DNA of 64,000 nucleotides from Azolla caroliniana (taxonomy: Eukaryota; Plantae; Polypodiophyta). The DNA is taken from assembly GCA_043228905.1 (NCBI GenBank), contig JBHGNT010000011.1, positions 620,001 to 684,000 on the forward strand, given 5' to 3'. Shown one piece after another: positions 19,687-64,000 of this stretch. Numbering within the stretch: position 1 is the first letter of the stretch; each line of letters opens with the position of its first letter. Position numbers and translations under genes: made by a program. The notes beneath the pieces were generated by a model that was not told where the DNA came from, ran no database searches, and saw nothing but the letters and a program-made list of their open reading frames with translations.

Positions 19687-20403
19687 GGGTTCACCAACTG
19701 TGTCGAGCCCTTCGGCTCCGGATCGTTGCGTGAGTCGGGTGGGAACCGCTGAGGTTTTGGACTAGGAGGAAGAGGAATACAACTTAAGGCTAGTTATGAA
19801 TAATAGGAAGAGAAGTAAGATAGTAATCTCGTGAATCCCACGAGTTTAGTGTATTTTAAAACAATATTTAGATTATAAGAGTAATTTAGATGGCAAAATT
19901 CGTGAATCCCACGAATATATTAGATTGATCAATTCTTCTATATTAATCAACAACCTTATACATATTTCTCTCCTCATATAAAGATGGAAGAGGCTAAGCA
20001 TGGCTTCATGCTTTTTCACCTAAAGTGTCCATGCACACTAAATGTGCATGTGATGCTTTGTCATTTCCTAAATATAGGGCTCATGCACGCTAGATGTGCA
20101 TGAGTCACTTTTAATGGCACGTGTAAATAAAATATTCACACTCTAAAGAATACATGATTTTTACCTTTTAATAAAGGTATGTGTAAATAAAGGTCTTATA
20201 TGTATTAAATCTATATTTATAACACTAAAGATAAGTTATTACAATGGTAAAGTTGGGGTTTATCTACGTGGAGGTGTATGGTTCAAATCTTGCCTTATGC
20301 ACGTGATAAATTCTTTTGATATATTATTTATTTATTTATATGTATCTAAAATCGGATATATTATTTTATGGTTTTCACGTAGTGTGTGGAATACACTACG
20401 ACA
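19687..20403 (-). mobile_element. 5' LTR (20403-19701) plus 10 nt of tRNA-Trp PBS of a Gypsy-family element
   Basis: The reverse complement resembles the LTR at 62197-62872 (TGTCGTAGTG...CGACA) and is followed by CAGT-TGGTGAACCC. Confidence 0.85.
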
Positions 20404-33620: not shown

Positions 33621-33884
33621 CGGCTCTTCTGGCCTTTATCAGTTTACGACACGATTTGTTTATGACAACACGATTGGAGAACTTGAAGGTATTGCAAGCA
33701 ATAAATGAATTGATATGGGGATTTACAACACGCATCTCCAATTGTGTTATAGCTCAAATGGTAGAGCCCTCGCTTTGCATGAGAGACTATCCACATATTT
33801 GTTTATGACAACACGATTGGAGAGCCTAAAGGTATTGCAAGCAATAAATGAATTGGTATGGGGATTTGCACCACACATCTCCAT

Positions 33885-33957
33885 TTGTGTTGTAACTCAA
33901 ATTGTAGATCCTCGCTTTGCACTCGAGAGGAAGGGGTATCGATACGCCACAACTCCA
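33885..33957 (+). pseudogene. Degenerate tRNA-Ala(UGC)-like copy; duplicated at ~35047-35120
   Basis: GTAACTCAAATTGTAGATCCTCGCTTTGCACTCGAGAGG...ATCGATAC...CTCCA aligns along its length with tRNA-Ala. Confidence 0.7.
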
Positions 33958-34271
33958 GTTTTGTAACCACTACCTTGCATGTCTAACATGTAACATCACA
34001 ATACATTAGTTTGTTTATAACTTTACGACTCTCCCTAGGTGAGAGGTATAGGGGATCAAAGCCCCGGATCTCTGATTATTTTATGCTAATACCATGCGTC
34101 TCCACTCTCTTAGGATAAAGTCACCATCATTAAAGAGGAGTATTGCAACTATGTACTTGAAGTCAAATAGATATGATGAGACTTTTGTATTTTGTTAGAT
34201 TTTAGAGAAAGGCATTGTACCCAAATGGGAGGATAGATAGTATTTGGAATTTTTAAGTTTCAAGTTTCAAA

Positions 34272-34344
34272 GGGGACGTAGCTCAAATGGTAGAGCGCTC
34301 GCTTAGCATGCAAGAGGTACAGGGATCGATACCTTGCATCTCCA
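34272..34344 (+). tRNA. tRNA-Ala(AGC), possibly decaying
   Basis: 73-nt cloverleaf GGGGACGTAGCTCAAATGGTAGAGC...TTAGCAT...CATCTCCA with G3:U70 and the ATCG T-loop. One mismatch each in the acceptor and anticodon stems. CAA immediately upstream and a T-run downstream. Confidence 0.85.
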
Positions 34345-34470
34345 ATTGTGTTATTTTGATACCGTGCATCTCCACTCATTTTACTATCTCGGTATTTCTC
34401 GAGATCATAAAAGCAACACATAAGATTATGCTCTCTACATCTTTATCATGTAATGATGCTTTAGCCTAAC

Positions 34471-34543
34471 TTGGATGTAGCTCAAATGGTATAGTGCTCA
34501 CTTTGCATGGGAGAGGCATGGGGATTGATACCCCACATCTCCA
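34471..34543 (+). pseudogene. tRNA-Ala(UGC) pseudogene
   Basis: TTGGATGTAGCTCAAATGGT...TTTGCAT...CATCTCCA. The acceptor stem 5' end and other stems are disrupted. Confidence 0.8.
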
Positions 34544-35447
34544 ATTTTCTTATCTTCATACATTGCATCTCCAATCACCTCACATCTATGGATTTACGTC
34601 ATTATCTTGATCATGAGATATGCTTTATAGAACCAAATTAAAGAGGATGTGAGAACCATCGACATATTTGTTTATGACAACACGATTGGAGAGCCTGAAG
34701 GTATTGCAAGCAATAAATGAATTGGTATGGGGATTTACACCACACATCTCCAATTGTGTTATAGCTCAAATGGTAGAACCCTAGCGTTGCATGCAGCATG
34801 AGAGACTATCCCCATATTTGTTTATGACAACACGATTGGAGAACCTGAAGGTATTGCAAGCAATAAATGAATTGATATGGGGATTTACACCACGCATCTC
34901 CAATTGTGTTATAACTCAAATGGTAGATCCATCGCTTTGCATGAGAGACTATCCACATATTTGTTTATGACAACACGATTGAAGAGCCTGAAGGTATTGC
35001 AAGCAATAAATGAATTGGTATGGGAATTTACACCACACATCTCCAATTGTGTCGTAACTCAAACTGTAGATTCCTCGCTTTTCACTCGAGAGGAACGGGT
35101 ATCGATACCCCGCAACTCTCGTTTTGTAACCACTAAAATGCATGTCTAACATGTAACATCACAATACATTAGTTTGTTTATGACTTTACGACTCTCCCTA
35201 GGTGAGAGGTATAGGGGATCGAGGCCCCGAATCTCCGATTATTTTATGCTAATACCATGCGTCTCCACTCTCTTAGGATAAAGCCACCATCATTAAAGAG
35301 GAGTATTGCGACTATGTACTTGAAGTCAAATAGATGTGATGACACTTTCGGCTGTCTTTGGCTCGTAGTTGTTTCGGTCTTTCGGCCCTTGTTTGCTTCG
35401 GCGGCCCTTTCTCGGCCTTAAAATCGACCCATTGCAAGTTTTTCCGT

Positions 35448-36179: not shown

Positions 36180-38016
36180 TGTCGTGGAAATCCGTGCATG
36201 CGTGTTGGATAGGATGGGACCACGAGGGTCTTGGACTAGGGAGTAAGAGGAGGAGTAAGAGGAGGGAGAGAAGCTTGGGAGTTCAACCGAGAAGGAAGAG
36301 AAAGATTAAGATTCAAGAGAATAAGATCTAAACAAGACAAGATACATTATGGAAAGCACCACACCAATTACAACCGTGACTGTGTAGGTCGAATGTAAAC
36401 CCTCTAGATGAAACCCTAACTGGATAGGGGAAAAGAAGAAGACGAATAAAACCCCTAAAACGAGATCCTAAAACCCAAAATTCCGAAACCCTAATGGCAA
36501 CCCAAAGAAACCCAAAAAGTGGAAGCCCCTCAAAAATGGCCCCTCACTCCCTTTTATAGTAGTAAGGGGTGAGGCACATTACATAAAGAAGAGGTCAACC
36601 CCCCCTTCTTTCAATGGGGGAATATTTGGCCTTGATCTTAGGAGGAGAGATTGATGGAGCCTTAACTCCCTCTCCTCACACACACACTATGCCCAACACT
36701 CACTACACCTGTACTTCATGTACTCTCCCTTTAGTCTACATATGCATGTGCACATAAGTGCACATCATATTTACACTTTATGAATTTTCGTAGTGCACTT
36801 TTAACACCTTACATTTACCCTTCCTTTTTTACATTTGTTTCTTTTACAAATCTTCCAAGTGCATGTGCAATGTTGCACATCCCCATTTTATCCATCCCAC
36901 TTGGTTTTCTCACCATGGCCGAAAATCCTCATGACATCCACCCCCACCAAACCGCACATCCACCGGTGTCGTGAAGATTTTCGGCAATAGTGTGAAAATC
37001 CCATAAAACGTACAAAATCGAGTATGAATCATGTAATACAATAATTGTGAAGATAACATTTTTAATATCTAAGTACAAAATGATGGAGGTTTCGAATGCA
37101 CTTTATTACACGAGAAATGGACAACTAAATGTCAAGATATGAGGGTATAAAGTTTGTGAAAAGAAAAGAGAAAATTGTGAGATATCCCACATAGGCACGA
37201 CAAATACGACTCTCATCATATATAAGGTGGAGCAAAAGATATTATCTTTGTGTCTATGTGTGGAGCATAGAGAGTTCAAGGTAACTTGAACTTAGAGTGG
37301 AGGTGGCTAGCTACTCGTAAAGGGTTTTGGCCAACCAAAACCGGACCGACGATGGAGCCGGTGATCCGACGGCAATCCGATGGCGGCATGCGGCACCGGT
37401 ATCCGGCGGCGGCATCCGACGTCGGTATCCGGCGAACCGGCGACTAGATAAAATAAATATATAAAAATATATACATATATAAGGAGGGCAAGTATGGATT
37501 CGAACCTTGTAGCTCCAAGTTAGGAGTCAAATGGCTTACCATTAAGCCATAATATTTAGTTGAAATTATATTTCTATCATTGTACTTTTACATGTAAATT
37601 CTCATCCATGAGTGCTAAAATGAGTGACATGGTTAGCATGCACCACATGTAATACTTAAGCGCCAAATGGCAAACATGCAATTTATGCATGTCTTGTACC
37701 CTCACATGCATCATATGCATGAGAGCATCTATAAAAGAGGGAAGGGGGAGGAGAAAAACACGGTTTTTTTTATGAAAATTAAGAAGAAGAAATTCGTTAT
37801 CAAATTGATCGTGTAATCTCAACTTCTCTCTTTCCCAATCTATCTTAAGTACTTTCTCGCCAAAGCTTGTATCGACTCTAAATCCTTCTGGTCTAGAACC
37901 CCGGCGGTTCCGCCTCACGATCCGCGCGTAGTGACGGATCTTCACGACATAATTAAGTGGTGAACCCGACGTGAAAGAGGCGGTAGGAAGGATCAAGTCG
38001 AGATTAATACTTGGAG

Positions 38017-40187
38017 ATGGCGTCCTCAAGCAACCAAGCAGGAGAGCTCGAAAGGATGATGCTAATCGTCGAGCAAATGATGAGATCTCGGGACAACGAC
38101 GCGAGCGTGGAGAAGGCTGTTGATCGTGTCGTAGAGCTCGAGGGCCAATTCGATGGAAGGAACGTTACGAAGTTCCTTGATGCATATAAGAGGGAGATGA
38201 ATCAAAGGGACGTGTCCGAGGCACGTCAAATCGCAAGCTTCAAGAGAGTTGTCGCCAACAACATCCAAAGACAACATGGTCCGAGTTCGAGAAAACGATA
38301 CTAGCGGAGTTCGTGACTGAAGACTCAACGAGGATGACTCGACATGCCCTGATGAAGTGGATAGAGAAGAAGAATAAGAAGATGAGCGTCTCGAGGGTGT
38401 ACGACGAATTCGACCAGATGTTTAGTCGTCTCCCCAATACGGACCAAGTATTGCTTGAAGAGGACAAAACTTTGTACTTCTTGAAGGCCGTGGGCATAAA
38501 GGATAGACGGGAGTTGGGGACTCTTCTCGAAGATGATACCCAAGCAAATGGGCTCGTAGTGGACTGGATCGCGGTGAAGCGGGCATGCAATAGGCTCGAC
38601 AAGCGTCGCCAATGGGTTGATGACACCAACTTGACGGGACCGACTACCACGGAGAAAGCAAGACCGCCGAAAGTAGCTGAGCCGCCAAGACAAAGTAACG
38701 TGGAAGAAAAGAAGATTGATGATGACATCATTGAAGAGCTAGCGAAGAAGTTTGAGAAGGTCACTCTAGCCAACATGAATCGTCGGGGCCCTAAAGGAAA
38801 AGAACCCTTTAGATGCGTGTGGTGTGATAGCATGGACCACATGAGAAGGGATTGTGCGAGCCTTCGAGAGGCGATTCGACAAAATATCGTATACATAGAG
38901 GACAACATGATTTGCTCAAGCGAGACTAGAAGACCCCTACGGGTGAATTTCGGAAGAGGAGGAATGAAGAGATCTATGGAGGATGCCGATGCGACTCACG
39001 TGGATGCGATGCACTATGCTGCGTCGGCCGGAATAAGAGTCGGGAAAGACAAGATTGAAGCTGCTAGAGCGGGAGCAAAGTTTTGGACTTCCGTTCTCGA
39101 ATATGAGAAGAAGGGAAAAATCACATCGAACGAGGTAGAGCTTGCGGACCGAAGCGTGCAAAGCATAACCGGGTGGTCGGATCCGGTGGACGACAACACC
39201 ATACTCGCAGAGGTGATGTGCGACAACCACGAGGTGTTCGTCAAAGAAAAGAGAAAGAGAATAGAAGAGCAAGGGCCATAAAAAAGACATGAAACAAGGA
39301 GCGCGAAAAAGAAGGATGATGCGGAGATGAGTCGACCTTTACAAACGGAGGAACGAGAATCAAGCCGAAAAGGGGAGCCGAGCATATGAGTTGAAGAAAC
39401 GGTTCGGCCCGTGAAGGTTGGTGTCGAAGACCCCGCTCGGAGGACAAGGACCATACCTACCTATAAGCTAAGGTCGGACATAGAGCAGACGATGGACCTA
39501 AAGAAGATTCTCGAAGAACGAGTTCTCGATAGCCACGTAACTTTGTCCTTGAGGGAATTGCTTGGCATTACGAAGAAGGAGTTCCATGACATGATCGTGG
39601 ACCTTGTAAAGAGAAAGAGACAACAATCGGATGAGGAAGAAGAGAAGCCGCAGAAAGCAAAAAGGAATGCCATAACGATGGCAAGAGACGAAATCGATGA
39701 AGATATGGTGGACAGCCACTACACTCGACCTCATTGGGCACGAGCGACAACGGAGACGCCGGTGAAGATTGGGGAGAAGAAAGAGACCGTCGTAGCCTTG
39801 ATCGACCACGGCTCGGAGATCAACCTCATGTCAACCGACTTCTACAAAAAGGGAAGATGGCCAATCAATACAAACCACGGATGGAAGATTCGCGCGGCAA
39901 CAAAGTCTACGGAGGACTTGTACGGAGCTTGTCCCAATGTCAAAGTCACGATCGGGGATGTGGAGATGGATCAACACTTCTTCGTACAAGAATCGACATC
40001 GCATCCTGTCATCCTAGGGCAACCTTATATCACATCATCTCGGATGGAGACCAAAGTGTTCGATAATGGAGCAGCCTTCGCACGAATAAAGAGTCTTAAC
40101 AACCAAAGATCGGTCCAATTCCTAACGGTGCGAGCCAATCATGAAAGGAATCGAGATAGTCTCGGAGGCGAATCCTCGGATTTTTAG
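38017..40187 (+). pseudogene. Gag-protease ORF of the Gypsy element (one frameshifting deletion at ~38270, two premature stops)
   Basis: FDGRNVTKFL gag start, knuckle CVWCDSMDHMRRDC, protease LIDHGSEIN. ORFs 38313 and 39411 are in the same frame. Confidence 0.9.
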
Positions 40188-42685
40188 AGCGGACTATTGA
40201 AGCATGGGGCACAAATAGTCCGAGCAATCACACGACCCCACAAGAAAGAAGAGCGCGTGGATTGCAAGGAGAAGCAACATGTGTCACACCTAGTGGCGCA
40301 TGTAAGCTAGTACTACCCGACAAGAAGCACAAGCGCCGGATACAAGATTTCGAGAAGATGTTGAAAGAAGAGAACATAATAGAAGAAGGAGAGTTCGTGA
40401 CTCATATTATGGAAGAAGCCTCATTTAACGACACCATCGGCGAAATCGAGGACGTCGTGGACTTGAGCTATCTTCACAACCAACGTGTGATTTCGGTTAA
40501 CTCCGTCAACATGTACGCTATCATCGATGAATACCGTCGTGGCATCTTGATGAATGAAGCTGACATCAACACGAAATATAAAACAGTGGATAAGAAGATC
40601 AAGCCAGTTGCGGTTCCGCTACCGGAAGATAGCTGGCAAAAGATGAAGGAAGTCGCTAATGATCCAAGCTTAAGAGATCTGAAGAAGATAGGTCATGACT
40701 TCACCAAAGAGACGAAGGGGAAGCTACAAGTTGGAAAGGAGGATTTCCTTCTCCCTGAAGAGGAGCGAATGTTTCGCGATATGCTTGAGAGACATGGGAA
40801 GGCTTTCGCATTCTTCCCACGAGAAATCGGATGCGCCGACCCAAAGGTTATAGAGCCAATGGTGATCTTCACAGTGCCCCATGTGCCTTGGAATTTGAAA
40901 CCGATACCGGTTCCGAGAGCACACCTTCCGAAGCTGATCGAGCTCTTAAAAGAAAAGGTGAGTATGGGAATTCTAGAACCGTCGAATGCTCCTTATTCCA
41001 ATAGGTGGTTCACGGTGCCGAAGAAGAATGGATCATTGCGATTCATCCAAGATCTTCAACCCGTCAACAAGGTGACAATTCGAAATGCCGGAATCGGTCC
41101 GAGCGTGGACGAATTTGCCGAAGCGTTTGCGGGCCAGTCCATCTACTCCATTGGCGATCTCTACTCCGGATATGACCAATTCCAATTGGCGATCGACAGT
41201 CGGGACATTACAACCATGAGGACTCCGATCGGGCTTGTGCGGATGTGTACCTTACCCCAAGGCGCAACGAACTCGGTGGCTCATATGGTGAATGCCATGA
41301 ATAAAGTCTTGAAGGATTGCATTCCGGAAATCACGATGCCATTCTTGGATGATATTCCGATAAAAGGATGTTCAGATGAGGAGAAAGATGAATCGAAAGA
41401 TAAGGAAGGTTGTAGAAAGTTCATTGCGGATCATATGAAAGATTGCGAGAAGGTGCTTCAAAGGCTCGAAGATGCGAATTTGACATTTTCGGGAGAAAAA
41501 TCCGCATTCGGGCAACCGGAGATCTTGGTGGTAGGTCACTTGTGTGGAGCATATGGCCGAAAGCCCTCGCCATCCAAAGTGAATGCAATCCAAGACATGA
41601 AAGAAGAATGCGAAAACCAAACGGAGGTTCGAAGGTTCCTTGGAGCGTGCGCGTTTTATCATATATGGATTCCTCACTACGCTCATGTCGCCGAACCGTT
41701 ATATGGACTACTAAAGAAAAGAATAAAGTTCGAATGGCGAGACGAGCACACAGAGGCGATGCGAAGATTAAAGAAACTACTTCTTGAAGCTCCGGCACTA
41801 AGGAAGGCCGACTATGCTGAAGGGAAACCAATTTACGTGACCGTAGATACGAGCCCAACTGGAATCGGGTGGGTCATCAATCAAGAAGGTGAAGATAATG
41901 CGCGATATGCCGTCCGGTTCGGAGCAAAGGTTCTCAGCGAACGGCAACAAAGATATGCCCAAGTCAAGCGGGAACTTTGGGGTATTGTGTTGGCAGTGAA
42001 GACGGACAAAGATTACTTGATCGGGTCAGAAGTGATAATAGAGACAGATTGTCTCCCAATTCTCGGAATGGTCTCGGGATGTGCGACCCCAGATCTTGCT
42101 ATGCTAAGGTGGATCGCCTATATCAAGTCTTTAAACCCAGAGATCCGTCACATCGCAGGGAAGAAGAACGCCATGGCTGACATGCTGTCAAGGGCAAGAT
42201 TTTCAAATGGAAGTAACATGGTTTCGGAAGATGAAGATGTCGCCCTCTACTTCTTCAAGATGGCTCGATTGTCGGCGGAAGACCAGGACACACAAACCCT
42301 CCACGCCTTCAACGAGAACGAGTACGAAGGAGAATGGTTACTCATCGGTAGATTCCGAAGAACATTGACGACCGATGCTTCGTTGACAAAGGAGGAGGCC
42401 CTACGAATCCGGAAGAAAGCTTATCAATACTTCTTGAAGGGAGGATTCCTTTGGCGACATCCAAAAAGAAGGACAGGAATACCACGTCGAGTGGTGGTAA
42501 AGAAAGAAGAGCAAGAGACGCTGATGACCGAATTCCACGAGAGTGCTTGGGCAGGTCATAGAGGAACATGGGCGACATTCGAAAAATTGAAGGAGAAGTA
42601 TTGGTGGCCAAGCATGTACAAAGATGTACTCCATTTCGTGTCCACATGTGAAACTTGCCAAATATATTCAAATATACGTCATCGT

Positions 42686-45600
42686 TGTTGGGATATCGGT
42701 CTCTCCGGATGGGATGTCCGGAGACGAATGACGGCAAGCCCGGTTACGGTTACGGAACCGGATGATGACCCGGCATGGAGCCGGATGAAGAAGACCCCGG
42801 TTACGGAGCCGGATGATGAAGACCCCGGTTACGGAGCCGGATGATGTATGTACCCGGAGCGAGATCCGGATGCGGGGACATATTTGTTAATATGTTTGCC
42901 AAGGGCCCTTGAGGCTATAGTTGTAAATAGCCCCAAAGTCATATGTGTATAAATATGACTTAGGGCAAACAGTTTTACTGTTGCTTATTATTTTTCTGTT
43001 TTTCCACTCAAGAGGAGTGAAGAGAGAGGGCAGCCGTGAGAGAGAGAGATAGAGCGCGAGAGAGGACGAGGACGACGCCTCTGTGTATTTCCGCCGCCTG
43101 TGGCGAGGACAGCGAGCTCAAGGTCGTCGCCTTGAAGCTCGTCACTGTATACTTCTCTTTGTATAGTGTCGTTGGAGTCTTGTACTCCCGTGGTTTTTCC
43201 CATCTAGGGTTTTCCACGTTAATCTCTGTGTACTCGTGTGTTTCTCTCTTTGTGGTTCCTATTTTCTGCTCCATCGAATTCGTGCTTACTCGGTTGTGGC
43301 CGAGGGGAAGAAGGTGAATAGAAGCGTCTATTCTCAACAAAGTGGTATCAGAGCGAACTGCTGCAGAAAATGGAAGGCGGCGGCAGCGGGCAGCCGGGGA
43401 TGATGGTGCTGAATGCACAAAATTACGCCGACTGGAAGATCAAGATGGAGGATCTTCTGATTGTTCGGGACCTGTACGAACCGATTGACAGGTCGGAAAT
43501 ACCGAAAGGGGTACTTGAGTCGGAGTGGAAGCTCCTAAACCGGAAAGCCGTAGCGACGATCCGACAATATGTCGATGTAAGCGTCCTACAACATGTGGCG
43601 AACGACACCAACGCATATGAGATGTGGAAGAAGCTGTCGGGCCTCTACGAGAGGAAGAATGCGTTGAACCGGACCTCCCTGATGAGGAAGATAGTGAACC
43701 TCAAGTACCGGGACGGCGAGAGTATGGTAGAACACGTAAGCACGTTCATGGGATTCGTGAATCAGCTTGCGGCGATCAAGTTCCCGTTGGAGGATGCAAT
43801 GCAAGCCATCATTCTGATGTGTACATTGCCGGATAGTTGGGAGAACTTGGTGGTGACCCTCAGCACCTCCTGCACCGAAGATAACTTGTCTCTACAAACG
43901 GTAAAGACAAGTATCTTGAACGAAGAAGCGCGTCGGAGAGATAAAGAACCGGCCTCCGACACGAAGGCGCTGCTTACCGAATCGGATCGGGGAAGACAAT
44001 GGAACCGGAGTCCGCAAAGGCGGGAGAAGTCGGGGACCCGGTCGCAGTCAAGAGGAAGGCCTACATGCTTCCACTGTGGGAAGCCGGGACACTTCCGAAA
44101 GAATTGTCGGCATTACCGAAAAGACAACGGAGCCGACGACACCGATTCGAAGAAGTCACCGGAGAGAAACGGTGCATACCGGGGAGCCACGGACCGGAGA
44201 GGTCCGGATCGGCGAGGGCAGGACCGGAAAGGAACGACGGCACTCGCGGCAAGTGAAGAAGAGATAATGCTGATTACCGAAGAGAGGGAGCTGAACCTTG
44301 CCGGAGTAGAGATGACCTGGGTGGTCGATTCCGGAGCATCGTTCCATCTGACCCCGGAGAAGAAATACTTCTCATCCTACACAGCCGGTGAGCACGGCTG
44401 TGTCCGGATGGGAAATGAAGGCACATGCCGGATTGCCGGCATCGGAGACGTGTGGCTGATGACATCAACCGGATGCAAGATGCTGCTGAAGGATGTTCGA
44501 CACGTTCCGGAGGTCCGATTGAACCTGATCTCGGCCGGGAGGCTAGATGATGAAGGCTACACGGGCAGCATCCGGAACGGTGTCATGAAGTTCAGCAAGG
44601 GGAGCCTGATAGTGGCTCGGGCCCGGAAGGTCAACACACTGTACCTGATGAATTCCCGGCTATGTCCGGAGGAGCTGAATGTGGCAGCCGACACTGCCGG
44701 TGAGCTGTGGCACAAGAGACTGTGCCACATGAGTGAGAAGGGGATGAAGAGGCTTGCAGAAGACAACCTTATTCCAGTGAAGCATGTGCACCTGGAGAAG
44801 TGCACCGACTGCCTGGCCGGTAAGCAAAACCGGACCTCCTTCCACTCAAGGCCACCGACGAGACGTAGTGCACCATTGGAGCTGGTGCATACTGACGTGT
44901 GTCAAGTAGAAACGAAGTCACATGGCGGAGCCCAGTACTTCGTAACATTCATAGATGATCACAGCTGGAAGCTGTGGACGGCACCGTTGAAGACAAAGGA
45001 CCAAGTATTGTCCGTCTTCAAAGAACTCCATGCAAGAGTGGAAAGAGAATCCGGCAAGAAGCTGAAAGCGATACGAGCGGATAACGGAGGGGAATACCGG
45101 GGGCAGTTCCAGGAGTACTGTCGCTCGAAGGGAATCCGACTCGAGTTTACTGTGCCGAAGACGCCGGAACTGAACGGGCTGGCCGAGAGGATGAACCGGA
45201 CCATAATGGAGAGGGTCCGGAGTATGCTGGCGCATGCGAAATTACCCAAGGGATTTTGGGCTGAGGCAATGTCGACGGCGACATATGTGATAAATAGATC
45301 ACCCTCAGTACCTTTGGACGGAGACACGCCGCAGAGAGTGTGGACCGGTAAGGAAGTGTCCTACCGGCATCTGAAGGTGTTCGGGTGTCTCGCATATGTG
45401 CATGTGGCAAAGGACCGGAGAGGAAAGCTAGATCCAAAGACCCGGCCATGCATATTCCTCGGTTACGGCGACGACGAGTTCGGCTACCGAGTATGGGACC
45501 CGGTCGACAAGAAGATATTCAGGAGTCGTGATATCATCTTCATGGAGGACAAGACACTCGCCGACTGGGAGTCGGAGAAGAAGATGGAGAGCTCCAAGTC

Positions 45601-48107
45601 GACCGGTGAGAATCAACTCTACGAGGAGCAGTCCCGACCGGCAAGGGACCGGTTAGCACTCGAGGATCCGGCCGAAGACGGTGAAGAAACAGAACCGGCC
45701 GAAGAAGATGACAATGATACCGGAACCGGCCCCGATCCCGAAATGGATTCGGATGAAGAAGAATCGGAAGAACCGGTTACCGAAGCTCCGGAACGGAGGT
45801 ATCCTCTAAGAGAGAGGAGGGCCCCCCGGAGATTTCCGAAACCAGAGCACGTGCTACTAACCGACGAGGGGGAGCCGGAGAGCTTTGAAGAAGCAAAGCA
45901 TGACGCCAAGAGCCGCAGGTGGTTGAGTGCCATGCAGGACGAGATGGATTCCCTGCATGAGAACCACACATATGAACTTGTGGAGTTGCCGAAAGGAAAG
46001 CGGGCACTTCGAAACAAGTGGGTGTTCAAGCTGAAACCGGGAGATGCCGGAAACCCCCCGAGATACAAAGCCAGGATCGTGGTGAAGGGGTTTCAGCAGA
46101 AGAAGGGCGTCGACTTCGACGAGATATTTGCCCCGGTAGTGAAGATGACCTCCATCCGGACGGTGCTGAGCATAGCGGCAAGCATGGACCTCGAGGTAGA
46201 CCAGATGGACGTGAAGACGGCATTCCTTCACGGTGACCTCGATGAAGAGATCTACATGCAGCAACCGGAAGGATTCGAGAAGAAAGGGAAGGAGCACTTG
46301 GTATGCCGGCTGAAGAAGAGCCTTTACGGACTGAAGCAGGCTCCCCGGCAATGGTACCGGAAGTTCGACTCCTTCATGACCAACGAAGGGTACCTCAAAA
46401 CGCAGTCCGACCACTGCGTGTTTGTGAAGAAGTTCGAAGGAGGAGACTCTCTAATACTCCTCCTGTACGTGGACGACATGTTGATCGTCGGACGGGACCA
46501 GGTTAAGATACGGATGCTGAAGAAAGCTCTTCACCGAACCTTCTCTATGAAGGACCTGGGTCCGGCAAGGCAAATACTGGGGATGCACATCATCCGGGAC
46601 CGGAAGAAGAAGCAGTTGTGGCTGTCACAAGAGAAGTACGTGACAAAGGTGCTTCAACGGTTCAACATGTCGGAAGCAAGACCGGTCGGATCAACCCTCC
46701 CGGCAAACTGCAAGCTGTCCAGCAAGCAAAGTCCCAAGACAAAGGCTGAAAAGGAGGATATGATGAAAGTGCCGTATGCCTCAGCCGTCGGGAGCTTGAT
46801 GTACGCCATGGTGTGTACGAGACCGGACATCGGATATGCAGTCGGAGTGGTGAGCCGGTACATGAGCAATCCCGGCAAAGAGCATTGGAACGCGACCAAG
46901 TGGATACTCCGATACCTGAAGGGCACAACGAATGTGTGCCTCCGATTCGGCTCCGGTAAACCCGAACTCGACGGTTTCACCGATTCGGATATGTCGGCTG
47001 ATGCAGATACCAGCCGGTCCACATCAGGGTATGTGATGACGTATGCAGGGGGAGCCGTTTCGTGGCAGTCAAGGCTGCAGAAGACGGTTGCGTTGTCAAC
47101 CACGGAGGCGGAGTACATGGCGGCTGTTGAAGCCGGCAAGGAAATAATATGGATGAAGGACTTCATTAGAGAGCTCGGTATCCGGCAGGAGGAGTACCGA
47201 CTCTACTGCGACAGTCAGAGTGCCATCCACCTTGCGAAGAACGCGGCCTACCATTCCCGGACGAAACACATCCAGCGTAGATACCACTGGATCCGGGAAA
47301 GGATAGAAGATAAGGAGTTCGTGCTGACGAAGATCCACACGGACGAGAACGGGTCAGATATGCTGACCAAAGTACTCACACCCGACAAGCTGGAAGCATG
47401 CCGGAGGAGGATCGGATTGGAGAGACATCCCATGCCGAAGTGAAGGGGGAGTTTGTTGGGATATCGGTCTCTCCGGATGGGATGTCCGGAGACGAATGAC
47501 GGCAAGCCCGGTTACGGTTACGGAACCGGATGATGACCCGGCATGGAGCCGGATGAAGAAGACCCCGGTTACGGAGCCGGATGATGAAGACCCCGGTTAC
47601 GGAGCCGGATGATGTATGTACCCGGAGCGAGATCCGGATGCGGGGACATATTTGTTAATATGTTTGCCAAGGGCCCTTGAGGCTATAGTTGTAAATAGCC
47701 CCAAAGTCATATGTGTATAAATATGACTTAGGGCAAACAGTTTTACTGTTGCTTATTATTTTTCTGTTTTTCCACTCAAGAGGAGTGAAGAGAGAGGGCA
47801 GCCGTGAGAGAGAGAGATAGAGCGCGAGAGAGGAAGAGGACGACGCCTCTGTGTATTTCCGCCGCCTGTGGCGAGGACAGCGAGCTCAAGGTCGTCGCCT
47901 TGAAGCTCGTCACTGTATACTTCTCTTTGTATAGTGTCGTTGGAGTCTTGTACTCCCGTGGTTTTTCCCATCTAGGGTTTTCCACGTTAATCTCTGTGTA
48001 CTCGTGTGTTTCTCTCTTTGTGGTTCCTATTTTCTGCTCCATCGAATTCGTGCTTACTCGGTTGTGGCCGAGGGGAAGAAGGTGAATAGAAGCGTCTATT
48101 CTCAACA
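42686..48107 (+). mobile_element. Intact Copia retrotransposon, Tto1/Tork-like; 654-bp LTRs 42686-43339 and 47454-48107; TSD ATCGT
   Basis: TG...CA LTRs of equal length, PBS TGGTATCAGAGC at 43343, PPT GAAGGGGGAG, ATCGT on both flanks. Confidence 0.98.
43370..47443 (+). CDS. Copia gag-pol polyprotein, 1357 aa
   Basis: Uninterrupted ORF with CFHCGKPGHFRKNC, VDSGA protease, HHCC and DDE integrase motifs, YVDDM RT and RNase H. Confidence 0.98.
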   Translation: MEGGGSGQPGMMVLNAQNYADWKIKMEDLLIVRDLYEPIDRSEIPKGVLESEWKLLNRKAVATIRQYVDVSVLQHVANDTNAYEMWKKLSGLYERKNALNRTSLMRKIVNLKYRDGESMVEHVSTFMGFVNQLAAIKFPLEDAMQAIILMCTLPDSWENLVVTLSTSCTEDNLSLQTVKTSILNEEARRRDKEPASDTKALLTESDRGRQWNRSPQRREKSGTRSQSRGRPTCFHCGKPGHFRKNCRHYRKDNGADDTDSKKSPERNGAYRGATDRRGPDRRGQDRKGTTALAASEEEIMLITEERELNLAGVEMTWVVDSGASFHLTPEKKYFSSYTAGEHGCVRMGNEGTCRIAGIGDVWLMTSTGCKMLLKDVRHVPEVRLNLISAGRLDDEGYTGSIRNGVMKFSKGSLIVARARKVNTLYLMNSRLCPEELNVAADTAGELWHKRLCHMSEKGMKRLAEDNLIPVKHVHLEKCTDCLAGKQNRTSFHSRPPTRRSAPLELVHTDVCQVETKSHGGAQYFVTFIDDHSWKLWTAPLKTKDQVLSVFKELHARVERESGKKLKAIRADNGGEYRGQFQEYCRSKGIRLEFTVPKTPELNGLAERMNRTIMERVRSMLAHAKLPKGFWAEAMSTATYVINRSPSVPLDGDTPQRVWTGKEVSYRHLKVFGCLAYVHVAKDRRGKLDPKTRPCIFLGYGDDEFGYRVWDPVDKKIFRSRDIIFMEDKTLADWESEKKMESSKSTGENQLYEEQSRPARDRLALEDPAEDGEETEPAEEDDNDTGTGPDPEMDSDEEESEEPVTEAPERRYPLRERRAPRRFPKPEHVLLTDEGEPESFEEAKHDAKSRRWLSAMQDEMDSLHENHTYELVELPKGKRALRNKWVFKLKPGDAGNPPRYKARIVVKGFQQKKGVDFDEIFAPVVKMTSIRTVLSIAASMDLEVDQMDVKTAFLHGDLDEEIYMQQPEGFEKKGKEHLVCRLKKSLYGLKQAPRQWYRKFDSFMTNEGYLKTQSDHCVFVKKFEGGDSLILLLYVDDMLIVGRDQVKIRMLKKALHRTFSMKDLGPARQILGMHIIRDRKKKQLWLSQEKYVTKVLQRFNMSEARPVGSTLPANCKLSSKQSPKTKAEKEDMMKVPYASAVGSLMYAMVCTRPDIGYAVGVVSRYMSNPGKEHWNATKWILRYLKGTTNVCLRFGSGKPELDGFTDSDMSADADTSRSTSGYVMTYAGGAVSWQSRLQKTVALSTTEAEYMAAVEAGKEIIWMKDFIRELGIRQEEYRLYCDSQSAIHLAKNAAYHSRTKHIQRRYHWIRERIEDKEFVLTKIHTDENGSDMLTKVLTPDKLEACRRRIGLERHPMPK

Positions 48108-50574
48108 ATCGTGATGAGTTAAAGCCGACATACCCACTCACCATTCACTTCAAATGGATGGTGGATCTGGTCTCGATGCCAATGGGAGTGGGACAAATGA
48201 AGTACTTAGCGCTCGCAAGGGAAGACTTGACAAATCAAGTGGAAGGACGAGCCTTGACAAATAAGACGACTTCAGCCGTTTGCAAATTTCTACTTGAAGA
48301 TGTTGTTTGCCGATATAGATGTGTAGGGAAGATAGTGGCCGACCGAGGGGAGTTGGACGCGCACGAAGCGACGGAGCTCTTCGAAAGACTAGGCGTGAAG
48401 CTCTCCCTCACGACTGCCTACAATCCGGAAGCAAATGGGAAGATCGAGCGAGGGCATGGACCTATCGTTAAAGCCATCGTACGGGCATGCAACGGACGAG
48501 TCGGGAATTGGCCACGACTATTACCCTATGCCTTGTGGGCCGATAGAACGACACATAGCTCGGTGACAGGGTATATGCCGACGGAGCTTATGTATGGACA
48601 AAAGCCGATTATGCCCATCGAAAGGACGATCGCCTCATGGGTAGCGATACCGTGTGGGAACGAGATGAGCCGAGAAGAGTTATTAGCGGCGCGGATAAGG
48701 CAACTTGAAAGAAGACCTGAAGATTTAGAAAAAGCGCGAAAGATGATGAAGGCAGCCCGAGTAAAGAACAAAGTTCGGTTCGACAACACGCATCGACTTC
48801 GTCCCAAGAAGATTGAAGAAGGGGATTAGGTTTTAGTTTACGACAGCACCCTTGACAATCAACATAGTACAACAAGGAAGTTCGCAAGAAGATGGTTCGG
48901 GCCGTATGTGGTGACAAGTGCCAACGATAATGCCACATACCACCTTGCGGAACTAGACGGATCAAGGTTGGCCGTACCCATTGGGGGAAAAAGAGTAAAG
49001 CTTTTCAAGAAAAGACAAGACAAGGATCCTGACCTCGATTACCTCGACGATGAACATAATAGGCCGGATGAAAATGAAGACATGGAGGAATCTAATTGAT
49101 CATCGTAGCCGAAATCTCACTTCTTCTCTTCTTGGCACGTACCGGAGGACGTGCGGTTTGGTGGGGGTGGATGTCGTGAAGATTTTCGGCAATAGTGTGA
49201 AAATCCCATAAAACGTACAAAATCGAGTATGAATCATGTAATACAATAATTGTGAAGATAACATTTTTAATATCTAAGTACAAAATGATGGAGGTTTCGA
49301 ATGCACTTTATTACACGAGAAATGGACAACTAAATGTCAAGATATGAGGGTATAAAGTTTGTGAAAAGAAAAGAGAAAATTGTGAGATATCCCACATAGG
49401 CACGACAAATACGGCTCTCATCATATATAAGGTGGAGCAAAAGATATTATCTTTGTGTCTATGTGTGGAGTATAGAGAGTTCAAGGTAACTTGAACTTAG
49501 AGTGGAGGTGGCTAGCTACACGTAAAGGGTTTTGGCCAACCAAAACCGAACCGACGATGGAGCCGGTGATCCGACGGCAATCCGATGGCGGCATGCGGCA
49601 CCGATATCCGGCGTCGGCATCCGGCGACGGTATCCGGCGAACCGGCGACTAGATAAAATAAATATATAAAAATATATACATATTTACATATACAAGGAGG
49701 GCAAGTATGGATTCGAACCTTGCACCTCCAAGTTAGGAGTCAAATGGCTTACCATTAAGCCATAATATTTAGTTGAAATTATATTTCTATCATTGTACTT
49801 TTACATGTAAATTCTCATCCAGGAGTGCTAAAATGAGTGACATGGTTAGCATGCACCACATGTAATACTTAAGCGCCAAATGGCAAACATGCAATTTATG
49901 CATGTCTTGTACCCTCACATGCATCATATGCATGAGAGCATCTATAAAAGAGGGAAGGGGGAGGAGAAAAACACGGTTTTTTTTTATGAAAATTAAGAAG
50001 AAGAAATTCGTTATCAAATTGATCGTGTAATCTCAACTTCTCTCTTTCCCAATCTATCTTAAGTACTTTCTCGCCAAAGCTTGTATCGACTCTAAATCCT
50101 TCTGGTCCAGAACCCCGGCGGTTCCGCCTCACGATCCGCGCGTAGTGACGGATCTTCACGACACTGGTATGTGCCAAGAGAGGGAAAGAGGTGAGATTTT
50201 CGGCAATGGTGATTAACCAAGTTCCGCCGCTTCCTTGTTGGCCTTGCCCGACTTCGTCTTCCATTTCGAGCATGCCCATCCTTCCCATACAAACCATCGT
50301 AGCCTCCCGATCCATCGTGTTCGCCACATGTCCCCGAACCATCGGCCCCATCCGATCCACCATATACGATGCTCGCACCTTCCCCCTCGGTCGGTCGTAG
50401 TAGACCTCCCGAACGATGTCGCCGATCCGATCTCTCTTCCTTTGTCCGTTGCATGTGTCCTTCGATTGGACTCCTGACCACTCTGACCGCATGTCGGATA
50501 CCATCCCTCACGCACCTTGTATGTTCCTCCTTCGGCCTGATCGTCTCCTCGTCCCAAGCACCTAGGCGTGCCGT

Positions 50575-51579
50575 TGTCGTGAAGATTTTCGGCAATAGTG
50601 TGAAAATCCCATAAACGTACGAAATCGAGTATGAATCACGTAATACAATAATTGTGAAGATAACATTTTTAATATCTAAGTACAAAATGATTGAGGGTTC
50701 AAATGCACTTTATTACACGAGAAATGGACAACTAAATGTCAAGATATGAGAGTATAAAGTTTGTGAAAAGAAAAGAGAAAATTGTGAGATATCCCACATA
50801 GGCACGACAAATACGGCTCTCATCATATATAAGGTGGAGCAAAAGATATTATCTTTGTGTTTATGTGTGGAGCATAGAGAGTTCAAGGTAACTTGAACTA
50901 AGAGTGGAGGTGGCTAGCTACTCGTAAAGGGTTTTGGCCAACCAAAACCGGACCGGCGATGGAGCCGATGATCCGGCGGCGGCATCTGGCACCGGTATCC
51001 GGCGAGGCACCGGTAACCGACGGCATCTGGCGGCACCGGTATCCGGCGAACCGGCGTCCGACGACTAGATAAATAAATATATAAATATATATATATATTT
51101 ACATATACAAGGAGGGCAAGTATGGATTCGAACCTTGCAGCTCCAAGTTAGGAGTCAATTAGCTTACCATTAAGCCATGCTATTTAGTTGAAATTATATT
51201 TCTATCATCGTACTTTTACATGTAAATTCTCATACATGAGAGCTAAAATGAGTGACATGGTTAGCATGCACCACATGTAATACTTAAGCGCCAAATGGCA
51301 AACATGCAATTTATGCATGTCTTGTACCCTCACATGCATCATATGCATGAGAGCATCTATAAAAGAGGGAAGGGGGAGGAGAAAAAACACGGTTTTTTTT
51401 TATGAAAATTAAGAGGAAGAAATTCGTTATCAAATTGATCGTGTAATCTCAACTTCTCTCTTTCCCAATCTATCTTAAGTACTTTCTCGCCAAACCTTGT
51501 ATCGACTCTAAATCCTTCTGGTCCAGAACCCCGACGGTTCCACCTCACGATCCGCGAGTAGTGACGGATCTTCACGACA
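50575..51579 (+). mobile_element. Solo LTR of the Trp-primed Gypsy family, 4-bp TSD CCGT
   Basis: Closely similar to 36967-37949. CCGT at 50571-50574 and 51580-51583. Confidence 0.95.
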
Positions 51580-62196: not shown

Positions 62197-64000
62197 TGTC
62201 GTAGTGTATTTTGTACACTACATGAAAAACTTATAAAGTAACGTTTTAGTAAATATGAAGAAATAGAAGAAAATATCAAAATAAATAATACATGCATAGG
62301 GCAAGATTCAAACCTTGCACCTCCATGTTAATAATGTGAAAGCTTACCATTATACTAGCATTTCATTAGTGTTCAAAAGTAGATGTTCCACATAGAAATC
62401 TTAGTTCACCTAGGATAAACACGTATGCTAAAAGAAAAACCTACGCATGCACATCTAGATAAAGCATATAGTCTATCTATAGGAAAAGCATTGAGTCTAT
62501 AGTTAGAGAAGAAAAAGCATGGATTGCTAAGACTCCCTCATCACTACATAAGGATGGGGAGCACAATGTAAGGTGTGTGTGAAATATTTGGGAAATTTGA
62601 TATATTTCCTAAAACACCAATTAATAAAATATATTCGTGGGATTCACGAAGTTTTATATAATCTACTCTTTCAATCTATGCTAAATTGTTATTAGGATTC
62701 TAAATATTAATAAATCTAATTATATATACTTGTGGGATTCACAAGTTCTTTTATCTCTTTCTTATAATCTATTCATAACTAGACTCGTCTCAAATTCTTC
62801 CTCCTCCTAGTCCAAAACCCCAGTGGTTCCCACCCGACTCACGCAACGATTTGGCGCCGAAAGGCACGACACAAGTGGTGAACCCGACGTGAAAGCGGGT
62901 GGCAAGGAGATGGAGAATCAACAAGAGGCGATGAGCATAATGATGATGATGATGATTGAGCGGATGCAACAAGAGCAACATGCGATGTCGGAGATGAAGT
63001 CGGCAGTAGAGCGGCTTGTGCAACGAAACGGGCAATTCAACGGAAATGATGTGTCACGTTATCTACGTGACTACAAGGCGGAGATGATGCGATGTGGGAT
63101 ACCGGAAGGATTGCAAGTGATATCCTTCAGCCGGGTAGCCACAGATGGGTTATAAGAGAGAATCTACAAGATACGGCAACAAAACCCAACATGGGGGTCC
63201 TTTGAAGAAGCTTGACGAGAGGCATATGATTACGATAGACCGAAAGGACGAGATCGGCGAGAGTTCGATGAATGGGTGGCATCGGAGAAGACCCACCGAA
63301 GTGCAACATAAGCATTCCTAGAGTTCGAGCATCGTTTTGCTCGACTCTCGGAGCGGGAACAAAGATTGTTGGGGGAGGATAAAGTCCTAATGTTCGTAAG
63401 ATCGATCGATCAAAAAGAAAGGATGGACATCGGGATCCAACTCGAAGATGATGACGGTGCAAATGGCCTTACCGAGGATTGGGCTGAAGTCGAAAGAGTA
63501 TGCCGAAGACACGATAAGTGGAAGATGAGAATATCGTCGGCAACAACATGGCCTATAAGGGATGATCGATTAAGGATGAACGATGTGGCTGATACGAAGG
63601 CCGAAATACAATATGATGGTACCACGGGAGAGAGTGTGGAACAAGTCACCCTCTCGTCTTGTGAAAGAACGACGGCCAAGGATAAGGTTGATGACTTGAG
63701 AGTGGCGAACACCACTTCAAGAACGGAAGAAGGTTTCGGAATACAAGTATCCGAAACATCGGGTGAAAAAGGGGTAAGCATAATCGATGCTTGCATGATC
63801 GAGGGAGATAAAGAGTGCGAGGCAGAATTAATTGAGGAGTCGCCATGAAAGATGACATCGAATCGGAGGTGGCTATGGACGAAGCGGATGGCCGTATGAA
63901 GACTTTCCCACCACTAGTTCTAGAGACTTCGGCAGTTGCGTTCGAAAAACAACGTGAGACCGAAGAGATGGAAGATGGTGGAGAGAAAACAAAGTTTGAA
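62197..64000 (+). mobile_element. Trp-primed Gypsy derivative: 5' LTR 62197-~62871, PBS, degenerate gag plus acidic tail; runs off the window
   Basis: TGTCGT...ACGACA, PBS TGGTGAACCCGACGTGAA at 62876, gag FNGNDVSRYL and LEDDDGANGLTEDW, tail homologous to the 51601 ORF. Confidence 0.88.

What the first reader, a model, noticed from the sequence alone, without database searches (positions are those of the whole stretch)
37463..37560. Gypsy LTRs carry an antisense tRNA-like Pol III cassette (five LTR copies, two divergent LTR types)
Seen: the minus strand of this LTR reads A box TGGCTTAATGG (37549-37539, within the perfect hairpin ATGGCTTA-ATGG-TAAGCCAT), an anticodon-like loop CT-CCT-AA, a consensus B box GGTTCGAATCC (37506-37496; 43 nt after the A-box start, tRNA-like spacing) and a T5 run at 37467-37463. 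The same boxes occur in the sister LTRs (49762-49709; 51177-51124). A diverged version sits at the same relative position, upstream of the LTR TATA and antisense, in a second and otherwise dissimilar LTR type: 62357-62305 (TAGTATAATGG / GGTTTGAATC) and 20237-20289 (TATTACAATGG / GGTTCAAATC, TTTT at 20314). The acceptor stem does not pair, so this is not a tRNA. Known: Cassandra TRIMs carry 5S-derived Pol III units in their LTRs, and TFIIIC-bound B boxes can act as chromatin barriers. Inference: this family captured a tRNA-type promoter and keeps it either to make a ~95-nt antisense RNA or to insulate its Pol II promoter from silencing. I do not know of this being described for an autonomous plant Gypsy family.
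Basis: partly seen in the sequence, partly recalled or inferred. Interest (0 to 1): 0.82.

Follow-up and report, generated by a model that had tools for sequence, protein, structure and literature searches.

The report
tRNA promoter relic in moss retrotransposons
The end-repeats of several distantly related jumping genes, likely of mosses, carry a back-to-front remnant of a tRNA gene whose two promoter blocks stay conserved while the rest drifts, so it likely serves as an optional protein docking site that would help keep the jumping gene's own promoter open, rather than making a small RNA.

Summary
Observation confirmed letter for letter in all five LTRs. The host element has the hallmarks of the moss Phygy Gypsy lineage. 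An unbiased pull of 83 related loci (by U5+PBS motif) shows the same antisense unit in U3 of three LTR groups whose U3 regions otherwise do not align, on at least three gag lineages. Across groups, two blocks (tRNA positions 14-23 and 43-61) are 83-92% identical; the anticodon arm is 46% and flanks 29-41%. No indel occurs between the boxes in 24 of 24 copies, and no RNA fold is conserved. Against a ~95-nt RNA: the T-run is not conserved, both boxes are canonical in only 4 of 24, C56T occurs in 6 of 24, and a high-coverage sister subfamily has deleted the unit. Other families carry different A/B units in U3, some in sense. Best reading: a facultative TFIIIC-type DNA element upstream of the Pol II promoter, spread by LTR recombination; binding and barrier function are untested. 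Known relatives: Helenus TRIMs and foamy-virus LTR Pol III cassettes. The scan noted similar units in fungal LTRs. New variant; interest 0.55.

The parts
37496..37549 (-). tRNA-derived A/B-box core (tRNA positions 8-62), antisense in U3 of the 5' LTR
37535..37543 (-). conserved block A (positions 14-23: 3' half of the A box plus TAAG)
   Evidence: inter-group identity 0.86-0.92
37497..37515 (-). conserved block B (positions 43-61: B box with its 5' extension)
   Evidence: inter-group identity 0.83; 0.89 with one sequence per subfamily
37516..37534 (-). anticodon-arm relic (positions 24-42), drifting, length fixed
   Evidence: 0.46, no indel in 24 of 24
37463..37467 (-). T5 run, not conserved in sister LTRs
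36967..37949 (+). 5' LTR (type 1, group G1) of a Phygy-like Gypsy element; flanked by 4-bp TSD CCGG/CTGG
37730..37737 (+). TATA-like box of the LTR, about 180 nt from the A-box start (promoter role inferred)
37958..37975 (+). 18-nt primer-binding site (tRNA-Trp type; identity recalled and consistent with Phygy)
38018..49099 (+). gag-pol region, broken by frameshifts and stops, with a nested Copia element at about 42685-48108
   Evidence: Pfam DUF4100, RVT_1, RT_RNaseH, Integrase_H2C2, rve; Copia RVT_2
49172..50163 (+). 3' LTR; cassette at 49762-49709 on the minus strand
   Evidence: 97.8% to the 5' LTR
50575..51579 (+). solo LTR (TSD CCGT/CCGT); cassette at 51177-51124 on the minus strand, no nearby T-run
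62197..62871 (+). type-2 (G2) 5' LTR; cassette at 62357-62305 on the minus strand, B box with C56T
19701..20403 (-). type-2 (G2) LTR; cassette at 20237-20289 on the plus strand (antisense to the LTR), A box with G10T

Best explanation
This is a tRNA-derived A/B-box module that sits antisense in U3 of several Phygy-like Gypsy LTR families and is likely kept as an optional DNA docking site for TFIIIC, which would shield or open the element's Pol II promoter, not as an RNA gene. Shown: tRNA ancestry of the layout, two conserved blocks with fixed spacing, no conserved fold or terminator, position 180-256 nt upstream of the TATA-like box, presence on several gag lineages, and loss in a sister subfamily. 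Inferred: a tRNA gene or tRNA-SINE head was captured once into U3 and moved between families by LTR recombination (mosaic LTR L034); TFIIIC binds block B; the bound factor acts as an orientation-independent barrier or nucleosome-clearing site, giving a modest advantage in a methylated, nested repeat region. Type-1 copies, which have both boxes intact, may also be transcribed by Pol III at some loci.
For: Only shared internal segment among LTR groups G1, G2 and G4. Inter-group identity: block A 0.86-0.92, block B 0.83, arm 0.46, flanks 0.29-0.41; tRNA-invariant columns 0.93 against a core mean of 0.66, column-permutation p 1e-4; same pattern with 9 subfamily representatives. Within groups the blocks rank in the top 2-13% of U3 windows and the arm at 37-44%. 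Variation inside the blocks falls largely on positions that tRNA genes leave degenerate (R15, R57, Y60; degeneracy recalled, and GTTCRAnYC in PMC3159450). B box canonical in 18 of 24, A box in 8 of 24, as expected of a B-box-only factor site. No consensus fold; cloverleaf pairing no better than shuffles. Separate A/B units lie in U3 upstream of the TATA in other families, in either orientation: L047 sense 24.6, L072 two antisense (one 24.6), L032/L069 sense 19.8. Barrier activity of TFIIIC-only sites in yeasts is stated in passages of PMC3159450.
Against: No binding, chromatin or transcription data. C56, which TFIIIC needs (recalled), is T in 6 of 24 copies, including high-coverage L009 and L064 and window copy 62357. 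The unit is cleanly deleted in L017, L022 and L023 (contig coverage 25-143x) and partly deleted in L046 and one L035 copy. 15 of 21 LTR clusters show no A/B unit at 19 or above, several of them partial sequences. All 30 strong hits are antisense, which a single capture explains but an orientation-free site does not require. Plant TFIIIC barrier activity was not found in my searches.
Confidence: 0.45

Rival explanations
1. Neutral passenger: a tRNA-SINE head that inserted into U3 and spread because it offers a patch of homology for template switching between LTR families.
For: Dispensable and patchy. Mosaic L034 switches from G4-type to G1-type sequence at the cassette. A second, more decayed look-alike lies in sense in the R region of some G1 LTRs. 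C56T recurs. Kojima's Repbase screen found that 'not a few LTRs' hold part of a tRNA (PMC10886601).
Against: A passenger should decay evenly. Here the arm between the blocks, which has the same age, has 1.95 extra states per column against 0.67-0.74 in the blocks, and G18, G19, G53, T54, T55, A58 and C61 are invariant across the three groups.
Confidence: 0.2
2. Pol III gene for a short antisense RNA (about 95 nt), the first reader's first option, acting on the element's own 3' U3 RNA or as a small-RNA source.
For: Three window copies and L007 have canonical A and B boxes with tRNA spacing; T5 lies 29-37 nt after the B box in two window copies. Foamy-virus LTRs carry tested A/B-box Pol III cassettes (PMC3993851, passages).
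Against: Both boxes are canonical in 4 of 24 (6 of 24 if a one-base-shifted A box counts). The first T4 lies 13-177 nt downstream or is absent within 200 nt (L007). No conserved fold; folding z -0.61 for the target.
Confidence: 0.15
3. RNA-level bridge: the sense U3 copy at the 3' end of the genomic RNA pairs with the D and T arms of the primer tRNA, as the U3 half of the Ty3 bipartite PBS does.
For: Explains the antisense orientation (30 of 30), the U3 location and conservation of just the D-arm and T-arm blocks. Ty3 precedent in PMC5371799 (passage). A similar HIV-1 U3-R case is recalled only.
Against: The PBS is already a full 18 nt. The primer T-stem deduced from the PBS itself (positions 49-53 R-C-G-T-G, 59 T) disagrees with near-invariant cassette letters A50, G52 and A59 (my deduction). 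Sense-oriented units in L047 and L032 cannot pair. The unit is dispensable.
Confidence: 0.1
4. The tRNA relic was co-opted as binding sites for ordinary Pol II transcription factors of the LTR enhancer.
For: Conserved letters extend beyond the minimal boxes; C56T is tolerated; the unit sits in the enhancer zone of U3 next to other conserved motifs.
Against: The conserved set matches tRNA-invariant positions closely (p 1e-4) and the spacing is fixed; no factor identified.
Confidence: 0.1

Closest known systems
Helenus TRIMs / TRIMp3 (Kojima 2024, PMC10886601; main text parts 1-4 of 6 and searched passages read, supplements not read)
   Same: tRNA-derived sequence inside LTRs, conserved around boxes A and B, not a working tRNA, not complementary to the PBS; proposed origin by SINE insertion into an LTR; one plant family (Selaginella).
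   Different: Helenus elements are non-coding, 311-1263 bp, and are proposed to use the unit as their own promoter. Here the element is about 7.8 kb with gag-pol and its own TATA-like box, and the unit is antisense, so it cannot drive the genomic RNA. The paper argues that autonomous partners must use Pol II and analysed only TRIMs under 1 kb.
Cassandra TRIM (PMC7215508, passages; PMC10886601)
   Same: Pol III internal promoter kept in plant LTRs.
   Different: 5S-derived, non-autonomous, vascular plants, and used to transcribe the element.
Foamy-virus LTR Pol III miRNA cassettes (PMC3993851, passages)
   Same: A/B-box units in the U3 region of an autonomous LTR retroelement; U3 deletions that remove them still replicate.
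   Different: They have tested terminators and structured miRNA precursors; here neither terminator nor fold is conserved.
Extra-TFIIIC sites / chromosome-organizing clamps of yeasts (as summarised in PMC3159450, passages)
   Same: B-box-centred DNA site without a stable Pol III transcript; proposed mode of action here.
   Different: Chromosomal sites shown by ChIP in fungi; here mobile, in a plant, untested.
Phygy lineage of Ty3/gypsy (Neumann 2019, PMC6317226; passages and one supplement table row)
   Same: 4-bp NCGN TSD, Trp-type PBS, 7.7-10 kb, no chromodomain.
   Different: No LTR tRNA-like unit appears in the passages I saw.

Membership tests
Phygy (non-chromovirus Ty3/gypsy) | 4-bp TSD, NCGN | tested here: met
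   CCGG/CTGG (one mismatch), CCGT/CCGT; 5' flanks ACGA and ACGT at the type-2 LTRs; definition
Phygy (non-chromovirus Ty3/gypsy) | length 7656-9968 bp | tested here: met
   13197 bp minus about 5.4 kb nested Copia gives about 7.77 kb
Phygy (non-chromovirus Ty3/gypsy) | PBS for tRNA-Trp | tested here: inconclusive
   18-nt PBS present; Trp identity is recalled; no plant tRNA-Trp gene could be fetched
Phygy (non-chromovirus Ty3/gypsy) | RT-RH-INT order, no chromodomain | tested here: met
Phygy (non-chromovirus Ty3/gypsy) | RT/INT phylogeny inside the Phygy clade | not testable with these tools
   no REXdb reference set held; nearest named proteins are Riccia sorocarpa at about 60%
tRNA gene | cloverleaf with paired acceptor stem | tested here: not met
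Helenus / TRIMp3 | tRNA-derived A and B boxes inside the LTR | tested here: met
Helenus / TRIMp3 | non-coding miniature element (up to about 1.3 kb) | tested here: not met
   gag-pol present, about 7.8 kb
Helenus / TRIMp3 | Pol III unit able to transcribe the element itself | tested here: not met
   antisense in 30 of 30 strong hits
tRNA-derived SINE | dispersed free copies with tail and own TSD | tested here: inconclusive
   0 of 30 strong hits outside an LTR in 287,765 bases, but the set is LTR-enriched and no genome is held
Pol III type-2 transcription unit | canonical A box, B box and nearby T-run conserved together | tested here: not met
   both boxes in 4 of 24; T-run position not conserved; met for two single window copies
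Extra-TFIIIC (barrier) site | conserved B box | tested here: met
   canonical in 18 of 24, six core letters invariant
Extra-TFIIIC (barrier) site | TFIIIC occupancy and barrier activity | not testable with these tools
   needs ChIP and reporter assays

The most novel reading that the evidence does not exclude
Coding-competent moss Gypsy families have repeatedly captured tRNA-type promoters into U3, in either orientation, and trade one such module between families as a portable TFIIIC barrier that protects the retrotransposon promoter from host silencing: a mobile anti-silencing insulator in plants.
Probability: 0.3. Interest if true: 0.8.

Novelty: new variant of a known kind. Interest (0 to 1): 0.55.

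Why it matters
TFIIIC barriers are established in yeasts, and my searches found no plant retrotransposon case. This family offers a natural experiment: sister LTRs with an intact unit, with C56T, with a clean deletion and with sense-oriented units, in a plant group with easy gene targeting. If the barrier reading holds, it is a cis-acting way for autonomous plant elements to resist silencing, and a compact insulator candidate for transgenes. If it fails, it still shows module exchange between distant LTR families and warns that such units can inflate tRNA pseudogene counts.

Tried and rejected
No whole genome is held, so a genome-wide copy census and a free-SINE search could not be run. ARAGORN and Rfam gave no tRNA at the cassette; ARAGORN on 60 of 83 loci found one unrelated tRNA-Leu. 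The U5+PBS pattern found nothing in viral contigs. Searches for a plant tRNA-Trp gene in viral and GTDB contigs found nothing, so the parent tRNA is unassigned; the common Y-T-C-C-T-A-W loop suggests Arg(CCT), from recall only. Sequencing runs: no RNA holder listed; contigs of four runs laid on the LTR and on the cassette cover it as part of longer LTR pieces and cannot show strand, ends or expression. One search had the T-stem out of register and was replaced. The cassette as a self-encoded primer was rejected: its 3' part is unlike the PBS complement. A landing-pad role (lead from earlier notes) was looked for only by eye: no stack of insertions in front of the A box in the window or the loci. 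Literature searches without a matching description. Four papers I wanted (HIV-1 U3-R tRNA-like sequence, salmon sarcoma virus LTR tRNA, Gabus 1998, Simms 2008) are not held; the first two are recalled only. Helenus supplements were not read and may list further LTR families.

Full report
1. Observation. ARAGORN and Rfam call no tRNA here. A scorer made only from textbook tRNA-invariant positions gives the three type-1 copies the maximum score of 24.6 and the type-2 copies 19.1 and 20.1. Ten shuffles of the window never reached 20, and 119 kb of real element-internal DNA gave three unrelated hits at 19 or above, none at 24.6. G19 to G53 is 34 nt, the class I tRNA distance (numbering recalled). 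The layout is therefore tRNA-derived and not chance.

2. Host element. The LTR at 36967-37949 pairs with 49172-50163 (97.8%) around a broken gag-pol region with RT, RNase H and integrase domains and a nested Copia. A solo LTR lies at 50575-51579. Target duplications are 4 bp of the NCGN type, the length without the Copia is about 7.8 kb, and there is no chromodomain. These are the Phygy traits listed by Neumann 2019. The nearest named proteins are from Riccia sorocarpa at about 60%. A moss or other bryophyte host is inferred. Nine LTRs in the window share one U5 motif; five carry the cassette and four do not.

3. Related loci. No genome is held. I scanned metagenome contigs with a U5+PBS pattern that does not include the boxes: 85 matches, 83 loci. 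The 78 loci listed come from 16 assemblies of one accession series, so they are not independent samples. 65 of the 85 had enough upstream DNA and, with the nine window LTRs, fell into 21 clusters. The cassette is whole in 7 of 11 members of G1 (partial in L046, deleted in L017, L022, L023), in 10 of 10 of G4 (two pairs identical at the cassette) and in 7 of 9 of G2 (L035 internally deleted, L029 interrupted). A profile search of all 287,765 bases gave 30 hits at E below 1e-8, all antisense in an LTR U3. Between G1, G2 and G4 the only alignable internal segment is the cassette with 15-40 nt of flank. A tree of 40 gag starts places carriers on at least three lineages separated by well-supported branches, with cassette-free relatives among them (short alignment, 13 of 36 forks open). 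L034 is a mosaic, G4-type before the cassette and G1-type after it, judged by reading the sequence. Lateral exchange of the module is the simplest account; ancestral presence with many losses is not excluded.

4. What is conserved. I aligned 24 distinct copies; from the 30 hits I dropped four identical duplicates, L072 (a different unit) and one L035 copy with a truncated B box. Inter-group identity is 0.86 for positions 14-19, 0.92 for 20-23, 0.83 for 43-52 and 0.83 for 53-61, against 0.46 for the anticodon arm, 0.39 for the 5' half of the A box and 0.29-0.41 for flanks. The tRNA-invariant columns average 0.93 against 0.66 for the core (p 1e-4 by column permutation, which ignores relatedness). 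Nine subfamily representatives give the same picture, and no copy has an indel between the boxes. Within groups the blocks rank in the top 2-13% of U3 windows, the arm at 37-44%. RNAalifold finds no consensus pair, and cloverleaf pairing does not beat shuffles. Sequence, not structure, is what is kept.

5. Results against a working Pol III gene. The first T4 lies 13-177 nt after the B box or is missing within 200 nt. The A box is canonical in 8 of 24, the B box in 18 of 24, both in 4 of 24. C56T occurs in 6 of 24, including two high-coverage contigs; this also counts against strict TFIIIC selection. A 148-nt deletion that removes the whole unit is shared by three contigs of 25-143x coverage, while the least covered loci are near 2x, so a cassette-free subfamily likely amplified.

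6. Other units. L047 has a maximum-score unit in sense about 140 nt before its TATA-like box; L072 has two antisense units, one at maximum score; L032/L069 have a sense unit of 19.8, which is near the real background. A decayed look-alike lies in sense in the R region of some G1 LTRs. So 6 of 21 clusters have an A/B unit in U3. This recurrence fits selection for such a site near the promoter, but it also fits a genome rich in tRNA-like repeats, which I could not measure.

7. Mechanism. I commit to a facultative TFIIIC-type DNA site upstream of the Pol II promoter (0.45). Shown: ancestry, block conservation, position, spread, dispensability. Inferred: factor binding and barrier effect, by analogy with yeast extra-TFIIIC sites (PMC3159450, passages). 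Rivals: passenger and recombination patch (0.2), antisense Pol III RNA (0.15), Ty3-like primer bridge (0.1; PMC5371799; the primer T-stem deduced from the PBS mismatches three near-invariant cassette letters), co-opted Pol II factor sites (0.1).

8. Known systems. Helenus TRIMs already show tRNA-derived A/B boxes in LTRs, with one plant family, and that paper notes many Repbase LTRs with tRNA fragments. Foamy viruses have tested Pol III cassettes in their LTRs. This element is not a Helenus (coding, long, antisense) and not a tRNA. My searches found no description for Phygy or another coding plant Gypsy family; subscription journals and Repbase entries were not searched. Earlier notes of this scan report tRNA-like units in fungal LTRs, one of them antisense and judged a passenger because it decayed like its flanks (unchecked); the present case differs in showing block-specific conservation.

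9. Verdict. Real, conserved beyond chance, a new variant of a known kind, function open but directly testable. Interest 0.55.

Noticed in passing
window 14152-14091 (-): A weak tRNA-like A/B unit (score 17.6, near background) lies about 300 nt upstream of the ATG (13790, minus strand) of a tubulin gene with a beta-type MREI start, in the same orientation.
   Followed up: partly
window 33640-35350: A tRNA-Ala(AGC) gene call at 34272-34344 with a degenerate copy at 34473-34543 and several rearranged tandem fragments of it; looks like a decaying tRNA-Ala array or SINE-like repeat.
   Followed up: no
L047:735-795 (+), L032:1816-1880 (+), L069:1865-1801 (-), L072:886-669 (-): Other A/B-box units in U3 of further Phygy-like families, sense in L047 and L032/L069, two tandem antisense in L072.
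   Followed up: partly
L034:6235-6178, also L014, L036, L046, L071, L079, L082: A second, more decayed tRNA-like relic in sense in the R region, resembling the main cassette.
   Followed up: partly
L017, L022, L023: High-coverage G1 subfamily with a clean 148-nt deletion of the cassette and, in L022 and L023, an expanded GC-rich tandem repeat just upstream.
   Followed up: partly
window 35449-56860: Phygy-like elements nest in each other: the target element sits just before the PPT of a minus-strand relative; an 8-nt gap separates its LTR end from the PBS.
   Followed up: no
window 42685-48108: Nested Copia with 99.8% identical LTRs and an unbroken 1373-aa frame: a very recent insertion.
   Followed up: no
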